DNA from: Clostridium sp.
GTDB taxonomy: Bacteria > Bacillota_I > Bacilli_A > RF39 > UBA660
DNA: 64,000 nucleotides
Direction: 5' to 3'
Assembly (NCBI GenBank): GCA_023665725.1
Contig: JAMPDH010000001.1
Location: 3,567 to 67,566 of the forward strand
Position numbers and translations under genes: made by a program. The notes beneath the pieces were generated by a model. That model ran no database searches. It had not been told where the DNA came from and saw only the letters and a list, made by a program, of their open reading frames with translations. Positions 30,147 through 62,889 of this stretch are shown here, piece after piece; positions within the stretch are counted from its first letter, which is position 1; the number at the start of each line of letters is the position of its first letter.

Positions 30147-31028
30147 TTGAAAAATGATGTAGTAACAACTGAGATTATTGTAAAAGAAAATAAAATTGGA
30201 ATAATGCGAGTTGGAAATGTCAATTATATTTCATTAACAGATTTAGCAAGATATAAAGATAAAGAACGAACTGATTATATTATTCAAAACTGGATGAGAA
30301 CAACAAATACAATATTATATTTAGGTACTTGGGAATATTTAAATAATCAAAATTTTAATTCCATCGAATTCGATGGGTTTAAAAATGAATCTGGCACCAA
30401 TGCTTTTGTAATGACTCCAAAGAAGTGGATTGTATCTACAAATGCTATTGGTATAATTTCTAAACAAGGAAGATATAATGGTGGTACTTTTGCTCATCCT
30501 GATATTGCCTTTGAATTTGCAAGTTGGTTATCACCTGAATTTAAACTATATCTTATAACTGAATTTGAAAGATTAAAGACAAATGAGGCTTATCAATATA
30601 AAATTGAATGGAGCGCAACTAGACTTTTATCAAAAGTTAATTATGTGGTTCATACAGATGCAATCAAAAAATGTATAGTTCCGACTTTAACTGAAAAACA
30701 AAAACAATTTGTTTATGCGGAAGAGGCTGATGTATTAAATGTAGCCCTATTTGGAATGACTGCAAAAGAATGGCGAGATAGTAATTCGAAATTAGCAGAG
30801 AAAGGAAATATGCGAGATTACACTGATTTACTGCATTTAGTTATATTAAATAATCTACAAAATACAAATGCTGAATTGATAGAAGAAAAAGTTTCTCAAA
30901 GAGAAAGACTGATTAGATTAAATAATTCTGCAAGAAGACAAATGGAAGCATTAAAAGATAATAAGAGCCTTAAAGATTTAGAATTATTACAAAAACAGGT
31001 TAACGAAAACAATATGATAGAACAATAA
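30147..31028 (+). CDS. KilA-N / DinD-like (phage anti-repressor-like) protein
   Basis: 293 aa; TTG start with AGGGGGA SD; N-terminal KilA-N/Bro-N-like segment (YISLTDLARY...IQNWMR); C-terminal DinD/ORF6C-like region; family call from memory. Confidence 0.5.
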   Translation: MKNDVVTTEIIVKENKIGIMRVGNVNYISLTDLARYKDKERTDYIIQNWMRTTNTILYLGTWEYLNNQNFNSIEFDGFKNESGTNAFVMTPKKWIVSTNAIGIISKQGRYNGGTFAHPDIAFEFASWLSPEFKLYLITEFERLKTNEAYQYKIEWSATRLLSKVNYVVHTDAIKKCIVPTLTEKQKQFVYAEEADVLNVALFGMTAKEWRDSNSKLAEKGNMRDYTDLLHLVILNNLQNTNAELIEEKVSQRERLIRLNNSARRQMEALKDNKSLKDLELLQKQVNENNMIEQ

Positions 31029-49586: not shown

Positions 49587-49663
49587 GGGCGATTAGCTCA
49601 GTTGGTTAGAGCACTTGCCTTACAAGCAAGGGGTCATAGGTTCGAGTCCTATATCGCCCACCA
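49587..49663 (+). tRNA. tRNA-Val (anticodon TAC)
   Basis: cloverleaf folded by hand; anticodon loop CTTACAA; 3' CCA encoded. Confidence 0.85.
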
Positions 49664-49672
49664 TTTTTATTT

Positions 49673-49748
<76 letters not shown>

Positions 49749-49756
49749 TTTTTTAT

Positions 49757-49840
49757 GGAGGGGTAGCGAAGTGGTCAAACGCGGCAGACTGTAAATCTGT
49801 TCCTTCGGGTTCGATGGTCCGAATCCATCTCCCTCCACCA
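49757..49840 (+). tRNA. tRNA-Tyr (anticodon GTA)
   Basis: anticodon loop CTGTAAA; long variable arm (class II); CCA encoded. Confidence 0.85.
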
Positions 49841-49853
49841 CTTTATTGTAGTT

Positions 49854-49928
49854 TGCCTCGTAGCCAAGCGGTAAGGCACCACACTTTGACTGTGGCATGC
49901 GCTAGTTCGAATCTAGCCGAGGCAGCCA
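49854..49928 (+). tRNA. tRNA-Gln (anticodon TTG)
   Basis: anticodon loop CTTTGAC; acceptor tgcctcg/cgaggca. Confidence 0.8.
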
Positions 49929-49950
49929 CTGTTATTATATATTTTAATAT

Positions 49951-50026
49951 GTCCCGTTAGCTCAGCAGGTAGAGCATTTGACTTTTAATCAAAGGGTCAC
50001 AGATTCGAGTTCTGTACGGGACACCA
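49951..50026 (+). tRNA. tRNA-Lys (anticodon TTT)
   Basis: anticodon loop CTTTTAA; acceptor gtcccgt/acgggac. Confidence 0.85.
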
Positions 50027-59964: not shown

Positions 59965-61566
59965 ATGAATGAGGTTTTAATTTTGATAAAAAACAATACT
60001 ATTATATTTTCAACATATACGAAAACAATAGAAAAACAAAATTTAAATAACACTAATATTATTAACAAAAAAAATTTAAAATTTTCTGAAGAATATATTA
60101 TCGGGAATATAGAATTAGTTTCTTCATTTTTCAATTTAGTTATTTTAAAATCAAATATAAATAGTGCTGTAATTAAAAATATAGAAATAGCAGAAACTAT
60201 TTTAACTTTATTGAAATATCTTCCAAAAATAACTAAGGTAGTTTTTACAGAAGATAAAGAATTAAATTATACATTATCATATTTATTGTTAGAAAATATC
60301 AATCTTATTAGTATTGAATGTTATAATTTACCAGAAATAATGTTTTACAAATTTCCTGAAAATATTGTACAAACAAGATGTGAGATACTATTTATAAGTG
60401 ATTTTATGTTATATAATAATATTAATACATATTCTAAGTTATGTAATAAAGATAAAATTATTATAGATAGTTATTTAACTAGATATGATATTGATGATAT
60501 AATTTATTTCTTCAAAAAAAACACTAATTTAAAAAAAATAACAATAAAAGGTTATAAAAGAAATAACTTATTATCTTTTTTAAATATGTTACAAAGAAAC
60601 AATCATAAAAATGTAACAATAATAATTTGCGAAGATTTTAATACAACAAATCAAATAATCTCAGATATTCCTTTATTTACTAGATTAAATAAAAAGTATA
60701 AAGTTAATATAAAAGTTAAATACTCAAAAGAATACAAAGAAAAAAATGGTATGAAAGAATTAAATATTATTTTAGTAAGAAATATTATTTTAATTATTAT
60801 TATATTAGTTATAGTTATAGTATGTTTATTTAATATAAAAGAAACAAAGGATAATCAAAATATAAATGTTAATTTATCAATAATAGAATCTGCTATTGAA
60901 GAAGTTAAAGATTTGCCGCAAATAGATACTTTTAACGTAGAAACAAATGAGCAAGGTTATGAAGAACATAATTCATATAATAGTCCTTATTATACGAACT
61001 ATGAATCAACATATAATAAGTTATTAGAACTAAATAGTGATACAATAGGATGGTTACAAGTTAAAAATACAAAAATTAATTATCCAGTTGTACAAGCAGA
61101 TAATAACGATTATTATTTAAATCATGCTTTTGACAAAACAAAAAATGGAGCAGGTTGGGTATTTGTTGATTACAGAAATAATATGGATACTATAAGCAAA
61201 AATACAATAATATATGCTCACAACATAAAAAAGAATAATTTAATGTTTGGCTCATTAAAAAATGTTTTGGACGATAATTGGAATTCTAATTCTGATAATT
61301 TAAAAATCAATTTTAATATAAAAGGTACTACATATTATTGGCAAATATTTTCTATATATACAATAGATGTAACAAGCGATTACTTAGTAACAGATTTTAA
61401 AAATAATAGTTCATTTAAACAATATATTGAAAAAATTGTTAAACGAAGTATAAAAGATTTTAATGTTAAAATTGGAGAAGAAGATAAAATTTTAACACTA
61501 TCAACTTGTTATAATGACTTAAATTATAGATTGGTAGTGCATGCAAAAATGATAGGAGAAAATTAA
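59965..61566 (+). CDS. Class B sortase with an unusual about 280-aa N-terminal leucine-rich-repeat-like cytoplasmic domain
   Basis: C-terminal domain has SrtB-like motifs (GWLQVKNTKINYPVVQ, IYAHN, LTLSTCY...R); one TM before it; GGAGG SD before the ATG at 59965. Confidence 0.6.
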   Translation: MNEVLILIKNNTIIFSTYTKTIEKQNLNNTNIINKKNLKFSEEYIIGNIELVSSFFNLVILKSNINSAVIKNIEIAETILTLLKYLPKITKVVFTEDKELNYTLSYLLLENINLISIECYNLPEIMFYKFPENIVQTRCEILFISDFMLYNNINTYSKLCNKDKIIIDSYLTRYDIDDIIYFFKKNTNLKKITIKGYKRNNLLSFLNMLQRNNHKNVTIIICEDFNTTNQIISDIPLFTRLNKKYKVNIKVKYSKEYKEKNGMKELNIILVRNIILIIIILVIVIVCLFNIKETKDNQNINVNLSIIESAIEEVKDLPQIDTFNVETNEQGYEEHNSYNSPYYTNYESTYNKLLELNSDTIGWLQVKNTKINYPVVQADNNDYYLNHAFDKTKNGAGWVFVDYRNNMDTISKNTIIYAHNIKKNNLMFGSLKNVLDDNWNSNSDNLKINFNIKGTTYYWQIFSIYTIDVTSDYLVTDFKNNSSFKQYIEKIVKRSIKDFNVKIGEEDKILTLSTCYNDLNYRLVVHAKMIGEN

Positions 61567-61567
61567 A

Positions 61568-62398
61568 ATGAGATGTCCAAATTGTAATAGTGAAATTGAA
61601 TACGGGATACAAACCTGTCCATATTGTAATAATATATTATTCCAAGGCCAAACAGATGAAAATATACAACAAATAGATCATGTAGTACAAAAAATCAAAA
61701 AAACATTAGTAATAATAAGTAAGGTAAATAAAATACTAGTAATTGGAGGAGCTATTACAATTTTTGTAGTACTTTTAATTGCTAAAGCTCTTTCTTATCC
61801 TGGAATTTTTAATTTTACTGCAATTTTAAATATTGTAGATATAGTTTTAAAAACTATGCTTGGAGTAGGTATTATATGTTTTATTATTTTCTTAATACTA
61901 TTTATAGTGAAAAAAAGAGTAAAAATAGTAAAAAAATTTGGATGTATATCATTAATTTTTATCATTGTACCTTTACTTACAAAATCAGTGATTAAAATAA
62001 ATGGTGATTTTTCATTAAAGGATTATTCTAAAGCAGAGTATATTGAATTGGGGGCAGAACAAATACCATCAATTTATTCAGTTGTTGGTAAAAGAAAAGT
62101 TTTAATAAATTATAGCAAAAATGATAAATTAGAGGAAAATTTGGATATTATTATAGATGTTATTGGAATTATATATCTAGATTTATCTAATGATGATAAA
62201 GTGAAATATAATGAAGCATTAATAGATTATGGATTTTCTGAAGAAACTATATATAATCCCGATGAAAACGAATACCAAAAAATGTTAGTAAAAAATGGCA
62301 TAAAAGATAATTCCTTTTATGTAGTTGTTATTGATGGATTATCAATTACATATTCAAAAGGCGACGGTATGTATCAAAATGTATTACAAATGTATTAG
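61568..62398 (+). CDS. Zinc-ribbon (CPNC...CPYC) membrane protein, hypothetical
   Basis: N-terminal double CxxC, 3 TM, C-terminal soluble domain; starts 2 nt after the sortase stop. Confidence 0.5.
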   Translation: MRCPNCNSEIEYGIQTCPYCNNILFQGQTDENIQQIDHVVQKIKKTLVIISKVNKILVIGGAITIFVVLLIAKALSYPGIFNFTAILNIVDIVLKTMLGVGIICFIIFLILFIVKKRVKIVKKFGCISLIFIIVPLLTKSVIKINGDFSLKDYSKAEYIELGAEQIPSIYSVVGKRKVLINYSKNDKLEENLDIIIDVIGIIYLDLSNDDKVKYNEALIDYGFSEETIYNPDENEYQKMLVKNGIKDNSFYVVVIDGLSITYSKGDGMYQNVLQMY

Positions 62399-62469
62399 AA
62401 AAAAGTAATAATTCTATTTGAAAATTTAAATTGTTTTAAATATTAATTATAATAGAGGAGGATATAAAA

Positions 62470-62889
62470 ATGAAAAAATTATTAGGAATATTTATTTCTG
62501 CAATTACAATATTTACACTTACAGGATGTGGTGAAAAAGGGGAAACTGTAACTTGTACTCAAAAAGAAGATGGAACTTCTGAAACATATACAGTAACATT
62601 TGAAAATGATAAAATTACAAAAGCTGTTATAGAATCAAAACAAACTGATTTATCAGGGGATGAGCTTGAAATGGCATATCAAATGGTTAAATTTTCAAAA
62701 TCATTACTTTCAGGAAAAGAAGGAATTAAAGTTACTACCTCTAAAGGAAATGATTCTGTATCGGCTAAAATGGAAATAGATTATACAAAACTTAGTGACG
62801 ATATGAAATCATCTTTAGAGATAGATGCTAATTCATCTAAAAAAGAATTTATTGATTCAATGACAGAGGAAGGCTACACTTGTAAATAG
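62470..62889 (+). CDS. YehR-like lipoprotein (DUF1307)
   Basis: lipobox LTGC; DUF1307-like TCT...TVTFEND pattern. Confidence 0.55.
   Translation: MKKLLGIFISAITIFTLTGCGEKGETVTCTQKEDGTSETYTVTFENDKITKAVIESKQTDLSGDELEMAYQMVKFSKSLLSGKEGIKVTTSKGNDSVSAKMEIDYTKLSDDMKSSLEIDANSSKKEFIDSMTEEGYTCK

What the first reader, a model, noticed from the sequence alone, without database searches (positions are those of the whole stretch)
59965..61566. Class B sortase fused to a 280-aa N-terminal leucine-rich-repeat-like cytoplasmic domain
Typical SrtB enzymes are about 240 aa with an N-terminal TM anchor directly preceding the catalytic domain. Here a recognisable SrtB catalytic domain (GWLQVKNTKINYPVVQ ... IYAHN ... 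LTLSTCY ... R) follows a TM helix that is itself preceded by about 280 aa. That region has LRR-like periodicity (NI..L.L..C.NL ...). This suggests a regulated or partner-binding sortase, or a frameshift-generated fusion of two genes.
Basis: partly seen in the sequence, partly recalled or inferred. Interest (0 to 1): 0.5.

Follow-up and report, generated by a model that had tools for sequence, protein, structure and literature searches.

The report
Long sortase B with cytoplasmic domain
This is a real, single gene for a cell-wall-anchoring enzyme (class B sortase) that carries a folded 250-residue domain of no known family on the inside of the membrane; the same design is conserved in about 70 species of uncultured low-GC gut Bacilli, and what the extra domain does is unknown.

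Summary
Window 59965-61566 (+) is one 533-aa ORF. It contains a cytoplasmic domain (res 1-252), a single TM helix (266-291), an acidic disordered stalk, and a class B sortase domain (346-533) with invariant His419/Cys515/Arg522.

The fusion is not an assembly frameshift. In 75 related loci the two halves share one 521-563-aa ORF in 68. Five more run off a contig end, one is split at an A7 run in a 3x-coverage contig, and one is a decayed remnant. The exact protein is already in NCBI as "class B sortase".

The gene follows, with no terminator-like site in between, a secreted protein ending in an NPETG sorting signal. Such NPxTG neighbours recur in 23 related loci.

Best reading: a lineage-specific long SrtB whose cytoplasmic domain is a docking or regulatory module. 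The partner is unproven; the substrates' cytoplasmic tail is the leading candidate.

The parts
58618..58647 (+). Sigma-70-type promoter-like site (TTGACA-18-TATAAT, 12/12) upstream of the substrate gene
   Evidence: It is the only 12/12 match in 58300-62600. This is a consensus match only; function was not shown.
58676..59908 (+). Candidate substrate gene: a 410-aa secreted protein of no known family, with a signal peptide and a C-terminal sorting signal
   Evidence: NCBI calls it a hypothetical protein (P0278, 100% identity). There is no Pfam or NCBIfam hit.
59792..59905 (+). Tripartite sorting signal of the substrate: NPETG, a hydrophobic stretch, then the basic tail KLKKYSKFPQA
   Evidence: N373, P374, T376 and G377 are nearly invariant across 49 homologues.
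59953..59957 (+). Ribosome-binding site GGAGG, 7 nt before the ATG
   Evidence: Read directly from the sequence.
59965..61566 (+). Long class B sortase gene (533 aa plus stop)
59965..60720 (+). Cytoplasmic N-terminal domain (res 1-252): a beta hairpin followed by about nine beta-alpha units. It is a new family found only on these sortases.
   Evidence: AF2 pLDDT 86-87. No family or PDB sequence match. 226 clusters, always N-terminal.
60040..60057 (+). NLNNTN loop (res 26-31). It is the most conserved motif of the N-domain, yet modelled with low confidence.
   Evidence: Invariant in 17 of 17 sequences. N28, T30 and N31 are 96-98% conserved in 82 sequences. pLDDT is below 50 in both models.
60373..60435 (+). 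Most conserved block of the N-domain (TRCEILFISDFMLYNNINTYS, res 137-157). With C119 and Y120 it is a candidate functional site.
   Evidence: R138, S145, F147, N151, T155 and S157 are at least 90% conserved; C119 and N151 are invariant.
60718..60759 (+). Basic juxtamembrane helix (KYSKEYKEKN...), with Y253 and Y257 invariant
   Evidence: Net charge is +4.3.
60760..60837 (+). The single transmembrane helix (res 266-291)
   Evidence: It is the only segment with Kyte-Doolittle above 1.6. It lies inside the long helix 262-315 of the model.
60838..60999 (+). Extracellular stalk (res 292-345): the long helix continues to about res 315, then a disordered acidic stretch
   Evidence: pLDDT is below 50 for res 317-344. 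Mean net charge is -10.6 and mean pairwise identity is 24%.
61000..61563 (+). Class B sortase catalytic domain (res 346-533)
61219..61221 (+). Catalytic His419 (IYAHN)
   Evidence: Invariant in 82 sequences; position.
61507..61509 (+). Catalytic Cys515 (LSTCY)
   Evidence: Invariant in 82 sequences; position.
61528..61530 (+). Catalytic Arg522
   Evidence: Invariant in 82 sequences; position.
61568..62398 (+). Downstream 276-aa zinc-ribbon membrane protein. It starts immediately after the sortase stop codon (one-base gap) and may be co-transcribed, but it is not conserved with the sortase.
   Evidence: No homologue was found in any of the 75 related loci.

Best explanation
**Architecture (shown).** This is a genuine, lineage-wide variant of class B sortase, a 'long SrtB'.
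- It is one polypeptide with N-in/C-out topology.
- It has a folded 250-residue cytoplasmic beta/alpha-repeat domain and a basic juxtamembrane helix.
- It has one TM helix and an acidic flexible stalk.
- Its extracellular SrtB domain carries the His-Cys-Arg triad.

**Catalytic role (inferred from family knowledge and gene context).**
- The enzyme cleaves the NPxTG sorting signal of the secreted protein encoded just upstream. In other species the partner is a neighbouring NPxTG protein.
- It then joins that protein to peptidoglycan, as other SrtB enzymes do.
- The organism has the genes for peptidoglycan synthesis.

**Role of the N-domain (inferred, weakest step).** The cytoplasmic domain is a protein-docking or regulatory module held directly under the membrane. 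My leading candidate partner is the short cytoplasmic tail of the substrates' sorting signal: a basic cluster followed by Phe or Tyr, for example KFPQA-COOH. On this reading the enzyme would hold the membrane-embedded sorting signal from both sides of the membrane.
For: **The fusion is real and conserved.**
- 68 of 75 loci carry a single 521-563-aa ORF.
- The 120 best-scoring clusters in the protein database (of 973 at E <= 1e-40) are 508-559 aa long and cover 96-100% of the query.
- The N-domain is never seen in another context: 226 clusters, with the short ones being contig-end fragments.

**The N-domain is under purifying selection.** Mean pairwise identity is 41% for the N-domain, 24% for the linker and 57% for the sortase domain. 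Polar residues are invariant or nearly so: N28, T30, N31, N48, K62, C119, R138, S145, N151, Y253 and Y257.

**Topology.** (charge distribution; single hydrophobic segment).

**Structure.** pLDDT is 86-87 in both models.

**SrtB identity.**

**Substrate linkage.**
- The window has an adjacent NPETG protein with no terminator-like site before the sortase gene, and a perfect promoter-like site upstream.
- 26 [N/S]PxT[G/A] proteins lie within 6 kb of a long SrtB in 23 other loci; eleven of them lie immediately upstream on the same strand (nine, plus L003 and L061).
- Class B sortases target NPXTG/NPQTN-type motifs (PMC11987632).

**Tail clue.**
- All 27 neighbouring NPxTG proteins have Phe or Tyr after the basic cluster.
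- The 27 fall into six passenger-homology groups.
- [KR]FPQA is identical in the window, L004, L005, L011, L013 and L061, although the passenger domains of L004 and L005 are only about 28-30% identical to the window's.
- VPxTG proteins in the same loci sit beside a separate short sortase. Their tails follow a different pattern, [KR]N[GE]K.

**Cell wall genes in the window.** Alr, Ddl, MurJ-like flippase, M23/LysM hydrolases.
Against: **No direct evidence for any partner of the N-domain.**

**The tail motif is not universal.** Homologues of the substrate that are not next to a long SrtB end in KIKQV, DMNNA or RKYD. The observed pattern could therefore be shared descent within a clade rather than co-recognition.

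**Conserved tails do not need a cytoplasmic reader.** The VPxTG tails are also well conserved, although their short sortase has no cytoplasmic domain.

**Other limits.**
- Catalysis and substrate specificity are inferred, not measured.
- The fold assignment of the N-domain is ambiguous.
- The most conserved motif, NLNNTN, is not modelled with confidence.
Confidence: 0.55

Rival explanations
1. The cytoplasmic domain is a spatial-targeting module. It docks the sortase to a cytoplasmic landmark such as the division machinery, the secretion sites or the sporulation septum/forespore membrane. This would decide where on the envelope the NPxTG proteins are attached. On this reading the substrate tail plays no special part.
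For: - Sortases are known to be focally localised. A paper titled 'Mechanism for sortase localization...' in E. faecalis (Kline et al. 2009) is listed in the references of PMC10107303. From my own knowledge, it reports that basic cytoplasmic residues of the sortase matter for localisation.
- The domain sits directly under the membrane on a continuous helix.
- Sporulation genes occur in this lineage: CotH in the window, SpoVIF, CotZ, CotJB and YqfQ in related loci.
- The tail motif varies between clades.
Against: - No conserved neighbour encodes a candidate landmark protein. Apart from substrates, the neighbourhood is not conserved.
- It does not explain the Phe/Tyr tail shared by passenger-unrelated neighbours.
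- No localisation data exist.
Confidence: 0.25
2. The N-domain is a small-molecule sensor or an enzyme. Conserved polar and Cys residues would form a pocket in a partial beta/alpha barrel. Surface anchoring would then be coupled to a cytoplasmic metabolite or modification, with the signal passed through the long helix to the catalytic domain.
For: - Invariant or near-invariant C119, R138, S145, N151, T155 and S157 are clustered in sequence.
- A continuous helix, res 262-315, links the two sides of the membrane.
Against: - No catalytic motif of any of those families is present; there is a single invariant Cys and no CxxxCxxC.
- The matches are weak, with high rmsd.
- A 30-residue disordered stalk separates the helix from the sortase domain, which argues against rigid signal transmission.
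Confidence: 0.12
3. The long ORF is an artefact: two neighbouring genes (an unknown cytoplasmic protein and an ordinary SrtB) joined by a sequencing or assembly frameshift in this window.
For: One related contig (L002) shows two overlapping ORFs, 285 aa and 255 aa.
Against: - 68 independent assemblies carry one continuous ORF, at N-domain identities down to 28%.
- The 120 best-scoring clusters are 508-559 aa long at 96-100% coverage.
- The L002 split lies in a GAAAAAAAT run in a 3.1x-coverage contig. A one-base change there restores ...KEKK-SILVTCSVLSLAFFIGYSY..., that is, the TM helix.
- The short 'stand-alone' hits all end inside or just after the TM helix, as contig-end fragments would.
Confidence: 0.01
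4. The N-domain is a neutral or purely structural appendage, such as a folding or stability anchor, with no specific partner.
For: No partner, ligand or family relationship could be found with any tool.
Against: - It has been retained in at least 66 species and 226 clusters.
- It is clearly more conserved than the linker (41% against 24%).
- It has invariant surface-type polar residues and a conserved flexible loop, NLNNTN.
Confidence: 0.07

Closest known systems
Bacillus anthracis SrtB (PDB 2OQW/2OQZ/1RZ2), which anchors IsdC through NPKTG
   Same: - It has the same His-Cys-Arg triad.
- The cognate motif is of the same NPxTG type, with Asp at P2' in the window (NPETG-D), as described for baSrtB (PMC11987632).
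   Different: - The solved SrtB chains are 183-254 residues and the TIGR03064 profile has 235 positions. None has a cytoplasmic domain.
- Here 265 residues precede the TM helix.
- The neighbouring substrate has no NEAT or heme-uptake domain and no family hit at all.
Clostridium perfringens SrtB (5B23) and Clostridioides difficile SrtB (CD2718; 4UX7, 5GYJ)
   Same: - C. difficile SrtB is described as a non-heme, possibly housekeeping SrtB in a spore-forming gut Firmicute (PMC8225981).
   Different: Both are short enzymes with an N-terminal anchor only. C. difficile uses (S/P)PxTG rather than NPxTG.
Cytoplasmic basic residues of Enterococcus faecalis sortases, implicated in focal localisation (Kline et al. 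2009, cited in PMC10107303)
   Same: It is a precedent that the cytoplasmic side of a sortase can matter for where it works. The long SrtB also has a conserved basic juxtamembrane segment (net charge +4.3).
   Different: That case involves a few charged residues, not a 250-residue folded domain. The content of that paper is recalled from my own knowledge, because the paper could not be opened.
Leucine-rich-repeat solenoids of the F-box/cysteine-containing type (FBXL2 6O60, SKP2 1FQV, MAX2 5HYW)
   Same: - Both have alternating beta-alpha units 19-30 residues apart.
- There are local LxxLxLxxC-like strings, such as NLISIECYNL.
   Different: - No LRR HMM matches.
- No significant internal repeats are detected.
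- Partial TIM barrels score equally well.

Membership tests
Class B sortase (TIGR03064 / MEROPS C60B) | Scores above the curated cut-off of the class B sortase equivalog model | tested here: met
   156.7 bits against a cut-off of 153.75, over res 304-525. The margin is small. The Pfam Sortase domain also matches, at E = 1.3e-14.
Class B sortase (TIGR03064 / MEROPS C60B) | Catalytic His, Cys (TLxTC) and Arg triad | tested here: met
   H419, C515 (TLSTC) and R522 are invariant in 82 homologues.
Class B sortase (TIGR03064 / MEROPS C60B) | Fold closer to solved class B enzymes than to classes A, C, D, E or F | tested here: met
   [not shown]
Class B sortase (TIGR03064 / MEROPS C60B) | Cognate substrates carry an NPxTG/NPQTN-type sorting signal and are often encoded nearby | tested here: met
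   An NPETG protein lies immediately upstream in the window. A further 26 [N/S]PxT[G/A] proteins lie near long SrtB genes in 23 related loci. The motif class is as described in PMC11987632.
Class B sortase (TIGR03064 / MEROPS C60B) | Transpeptidation of the substrate to peptidoglycan or lipid II | not testable with these tools
   This needs biochemistry or genetics. Only the presence of peptidoglycan-synthesis genes in the window was shown.
Class B sortase (TIGR03064 / MEROPS C60B) | Usual architecture: short N-terminal membrane anchor directly followed by the catalytic domain, about 220-250 aa in total. This is typical of the class, not defining. | tested here: not met
   The protein is 533 aa, with 265 residues before the TM helix. 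The solved SrtB chains are 183-254 residues and the TIGR03064 profile has 235 positions.
Leucine-rich repeat superfamily | Match to an LRR sequence model | tested here: not met
   The best hit is PF25019 at E = 0.097, 13 bits against a cut-off of 27, in 1 of 17 members. The PDB profile search returned nothing.
Leucine-rich repeat superfamily | Tandem 20-30-residue repeats with LxxLxLxxN/C, detectable as internal sequence repeats | tested here: not met
   hhalign between thirds of the domain gives E = 0.43, 0.021 and 0.094, with probabilities of 2.3% or less.
Leucine-rich repeat superfamily | Curved solenoid with a parallel beta sheet and helices on the convex side | tested here: inconclusive
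   [not shown]
Cell-wall sorting signal (the neighbouring gene as a sortase substrate) | N-terminal signal peptide, plus a C-terminal motif, hydrophobic stretch and basic tail | tested here: met
   The N-terminus is MKNKSIFKLGIFVAAFFVGIFSVSA and the C-terminus is NPETG-DKSSIIVFASIATLLIGTVAYI-KLKKYSKFPQA.

The most novel reading that the evidence does not exclude
The cytoplasmic domain reads the C-terminal tail of the sorting signal (basic cluster plus Phe/Tyr, for example KFPQA-COOH) while the extracellular domain reads NPxTG. The sortase would then recognise its membrane-embedded substrate from both faces of the membrane. This would be the first case in which the 'positively charged tail' of a sorting signal has a dedicated protein receptor, and in which substrate choice or timing is set from the cytoplasm.
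Probability: 0.2. Interest if true: 0.7.

Novelty: new variant of a known kind. Interest (0 to 1): 0.45.

Why it matters
Sortases are normally described as extracellular enzymes held by a simple membrane anchor. How they find substrates, and where on the envelope they act, is only partly understood.

A whole lineage of gut Bacilli has kept a folded 250-residue cytoplasmic domain on its SrtB. This suggests that surface-protein anchoring there is coupled to something inside the cell. Candidates are the substrate's own tail, a positional landmark or a metabolite.

The domain is an unannotated family: databases label these proteins simply 'class B sortase'. It could be defined as a new domain family. 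It also offers a tractable test, by peptide binding, structure prediction of complexes or heterologous anchoring assays, of whether the cytoplasmic part of sorting signals is specifically recognised.

The practical limit is that all carriers are uncultured.

Tried and rejected
**Family and sequence searches for the N-domain: all negative.**
- Pfam, NCBIfam, PADLOC and PHROGs scans found nothing above threshold.
- A profile search of PDB sequences at E <= 10 gave 0 hits.

**Fold searches: no convincing match.**
- Foldseek against the PDB found nothing below E = 1e-3.
- The afdb50 library was not available.

**Internal repeats.** hhalign found nothing significant.

**Conserved neighbours beyond substrates.**
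- None of the window's other neighbours (528-aa membrane protein, Zn-ribbon protein, lipoprotein, CotH protein) recurs next to long SrtB genes elsewhere.
- The cluster seen in about 30 loci (multi-TM protein, short sortase, VPxTG protein) is absent from the 2.4 kb that remain downstream in the window. It most likely forms its own sortase-substrate pair.

**Attenuator between substrate and sortase genes.** The intergenic RNA folds no better than shuffles (z = 0.05). The scan found no terminator-like site on the + strand anywhere in 58300-62600.

**A stand-alone N-domain protein.** Rejected, because the 270-350-aa hits all stop within or just after the TM helix.

**A universal 'KFPQA' tail for the substrate family.** Rejected, because many homologues end differently.

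**Literature.** Searches for a sortase with a cytoplasmic or LRR domain found nothing relevant. Kline et al. 2009 could not be opened. A taxonomy look-up failed on the name format.
Full report
**1. What is in the window**

The region is very AT-rich, at 17-23% G+C.

*The ORF and its start.*
- One ORF runs from 59926 to 61566 on the + strand.
- The biologically sensible start is the ATG at 59965. A GGAGG lies 7 nt upstream.
- All homologues begin there.
- The 533-aa product is identical to an NCBI entry named 'class B sortase [Clostridium sp.]'.

*The sortase half.*
- The C-terminal half is a class B sortase by the curated NCBIfam model: TIGR03064 scores 156.7 bits against a cut-off of 153.75, over res 304-525.
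- The Pfam Sortase domain matches.
- Similarity to solved SrtB enzymes is strong, with B. anthracis SrtB at E = 1.4e-35.
- His419, Cys515 (in TLSTC) and Arg522 are invariant in 82 homologues.

*Topology.*
- The protein has a single hydrophobic segment, res 266-291.
- Across the family the segment before it is basic (+4.3) and the segment after it strongly acidic (-10.6).
- The N-terminal 265 residues are therefore cytoplasmic and the sortase domain is outside, as it must be to work.

**2. Is the fusion real?**

Yes.

*Related loci.*
- A scan of one genome per species (GTDB) with a profile of the N-terminal region returned 72 loci.
- All come from uncultured gut or anaerobic-digester MAGs. Most are labelled Bacilli, Tenericutes, Mollicutes or Firmicutes. 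A few bins carry other labels such as Muribaculaceae, Clostridium sp. or Phocaeicola vulgatus.
- Three further loci came from metagenome contigs, giving 75 in total.

*How the 75 loci divide.*
- 68 carry the N-terminal region and the sortase domain in one reading frame, as a 521-563-aa ORF.
- One of those 68 (L001) is cut short by compositionally foreign sequence, probably a chimeric contig.
- 5 run off a contig end.
- 1 (L075) is a remnant with stop codons.
- 1 (L002) has two overlapping ORFs.

*The L002 exception.*
- The frame change sits in a GAAAAAAAT run in a contig of 3.1x coverage.
- A one-base change restores ...KEKK-SILVTCSVLSLAFFIGYSY..., that is, the TM helix.

*Protein database.*
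- A search with the full protein lists 120 clusters of 508-559 aa at 96-100% coverage.
- The frameshift-fusion reading is therefore refuted.

**3. The N-terminal domain**

*No known family.*
- It matches nothing in Pfam, NCBIfam, PADLOC or PHROGs.
- It matches no PDB sequence, even at E = 10 with a profile.

*Distribution.*
- An exhaustive HMM search of 1.84 billion cluster representatives found 226 proteins at E <= 1e-3.
- The domain is always at the N-terminus.
- The shorter hits end inside or shortly after the TM helix, or continue into a truncated sortase domain. They are contig-end fragments, not stand-alone proteins.
- The domain therefore appears to exist only as part of this sortase.

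*Selection.*
- Mean pairwise identity is 41% for the N-domain, 24% for the extracellular linker and 57% for the catalytic domain.
- Residues at or above 90% identity are F15, N28, T30, N31, F40, Y44, I45, N48, K62, I89, Y102, L108, C119, Y120, P123, R138, S145, F147, N151, T155, S157, F182, N186, Y253, Y257, N261 and K264.

*Predicted structure.* AlphaFold2 models it confidently, with a 17-sequence alignment (pLDDT 86.4) and inside the full-length protein with 82 sequences (pLDDT 86.7).
- A beta hairpin spans res 3-18.
- A low-confidence loop coincides with the best-conserved motif, NLNNTN (res 26-31).
- About nine beta-alpha units follow, with strands starting at res 37, 67, 91, 116, 135, 164, 191, 218 and 248.
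- A long helix (262-315) contains the TM segment.
- Res 317-344 are disordered.
- The sortase domain follows.

**4. Is it LRR-like?**

Only partly.

*In favour.*
- These are FBXL2, MAX2, RAD7, GALA/LegL1, leiomodin and ATP synthase subunit s.
- Local strings such as NLISIECYNL resemble the cysteine-containing LRR consensus.

*Against.*
- Rossmann-like folds also appear among the hits.
- Foldseek finds nothing below E = 1e-3, with TM-scores of 0.29 or less.
- Profile-profile comparison of segments of the domain detects no internal repeat (E 0.02-0.43).
- The best Pfam LRR hit is far below threshold.

The honest description is a beta/alpha-repeat domain of a new family, with no close structural relative.

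**5. Context**

*In the window.*
- Immediately upstream is a 410-aa protein of no known family (58676-59908).
- It has a signal peptide and a C-terminal NPETG, a hydrophobic stretch and the tail KLKKYSKFPQA. This is a classic tripartite sorting signal of the type class B sortases use (PMC11987632).
- A perfect TTGACA-18-TATAAT site precedes it.
- No terminator-like site separates it from the sortase gene.
- The window also encodes alanine racemase, D-Ala-D-Ala ligase, a MurJ-like flippase and M23/LysM hydrolases, so the organism has a cell wall.

*In related loci.*
- 26 [N/S]PxT[G/A] proteins lie within 6 kb of the long SrtB in 23 loci.
- Eleven of them lie directly upstream on the same strand, in the window's closer relatives.
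- No other neighbour is conserved.
- In about 30 loci a convergent cluster lies downstream: a multi-TM protein, a short 227-aa sortase and a 520-720-aa VPxTG protein of SpaA/Cna-B type. It most likely forms its own enzyme-substrate pair.

**6. How it probably works**

*Shown.* The architecture, the topology, conservation of the fusion, the catalytic triad and the genomic pairing with NPxTG proteins.

*Inferred from family knowledge.*
- The enzyme cleaves NPxT|G.
- It then links the protein to peptidoglycan.

*Open.* What the cytoplasmic domain does.

*A clue from the substrate tails.*
- All 27 NPxTG neighbours, the window's included, end in a basic cluster followed by Phe or Tyr.
- Examples are KFPQA, RFPQA, KFPK.., KF.., KKKKY[IVM] and ..FKQF.
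- The 27 fall into six passenger-homology groups.
- The pentapeptide [KR]FPQA is identical in six loci. The two of these whose passenger domains align with the window's (L004, L005) are only about 28-30% identical to it.
- The VPxTG proteins have a different conserved tail, [KR]N[GE]K...

*What the clue suggests.* The domain sits directly beneath the membrane on the TM helix. It has a conserved flexible loop and conserved polar residues. It could therefore bind the substrate's tail.

*Caveats.*
- Substrate homologues that are not next to a long SrtB end in KIKQV, DMNNA or RKYD.
- The pattern may therefore reflect shared ancestry.
- The VPxTG tails are conserved without any cytoplasmic reader on their sortase.

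*Probabilities.*
- About 0.2 for tail binding specifically.
- About 0.55 for the broader statement: a genuine long SrtB whose cytoplasmic domain is a docking or regulatory module.

*Rivals.*
- Spatial targeting to a cytoplasmic landmark (0.25). This lineage has sporulation genes, and cytoplasmic residues of enterococcal sortases have been tied to localisation.
- A small-molecule sensor or enzyme (0.12).
- A functionless appendage (0.07).
- An assembly artefact (0.01).

**7. Comparison with the known, and novelty**

- As an enzyme it passes every class B sortase test I could run.
- It departs from the usual architecture. The solved SrtB chains are 183-254 residues and the TIGR03064 profile has 235 positions.
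- It is not a demonstrable member of the LRR superfamily.
- Public databases already hold these proteins, labelled only 'class B sortase', with the N-terminal 265 residues unannotated.
- Full-text searches found no description of a sortase with a folded cytoplasmic domain.
- I therefore rate it a new variant of a known kind.
- Interest is moderate (0.45). It is a clear, conserved and unexplained architectural novelty in a well-studied enzyme family. Its function is unknown and its hosts are uncultured.

Noticed in passing
window 49587-51176 (+): A cluster of 12 tRNA genes. It accounts for the local G+C peak (up to 47%) in an otherwise 17-33% G+C stretch.
   Followed up: no
window 53824-56700 (-): A 958-aa protein with an N-terminal hydrophobic segment, three lamin-tail domains, a chitobiase/hexosaminidase C-terminal domain and a CotH kinase domain. 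It was not found next to long SrtB genes in other loci.
   Followed up: partly
window 56840-58426 (+): A 528-aa multi-TM protein with no hit in Pfam, NCBIfam, PADLOC or PHROGs, and no homologue in the 75 related loci.
   Followed up: partly
window 61568-62398 (+): A 276-aa protein with an N-terminal zinc ribbon and several hydrophobic segments. It starts immediately after the sortase stop codon (one-base gap). It has a weak PHROG match (phrog_4875, E = 1.1e-5) and is not conserved with the sortase elsewhere.
   Followed up: partly
L009 7628-10972 and about 30 other loci (e.g. L010, L023, L037, L045): A cluster lies convergent and just downstream of the long SrtB. It comprises a 260-aa multi-TM protein, a short 227-aa sortase and a 520-720-aa VPxTG protein with SpaA/Cna-B-like sequence and a conserved [KR]N[GE]K tail. 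This is a second, separate sortase-substrate set.
   Followed up: partly
L002 4130-4180: The only split version of the gene. The frame changes within a GAAAAAAAT run in a 3.1x-coverage contig. It is probably a sequencing error, but a genuine homopolymer-length variant cannot be excluded.
   Followed up: yes
L001 9400-9878: The sortase ORF is interrupted after ...KANMKWE by sequence of different composition, with an overlapping gene called on the opposite strand. This looks like a chimeric contig or an insertion.
   Followed up: partly
L075 5-334: A fragment of the N-domain (res 89-192) followed by stop codons, with no sortase domain downstream. It is a possible pseudogene remnant in one species.
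   Followed up: partly
window 30147-31028 (+): A KilA-N domain protein (E = 6.9e-18), possibly a trace of a mobile element or prophage.
   Followed up: no
L076-L080 (substrate homologues P0306, P0325, P0292): Homologues of the NPxTG substrate that are not adjacent to a long SrtB carry different tails (KIKQVQ, DMNNA, RKYD). One tail (TNRDMNNA) has no net positive charge, which is unusual for a sorting signal.
   Followed up: partly
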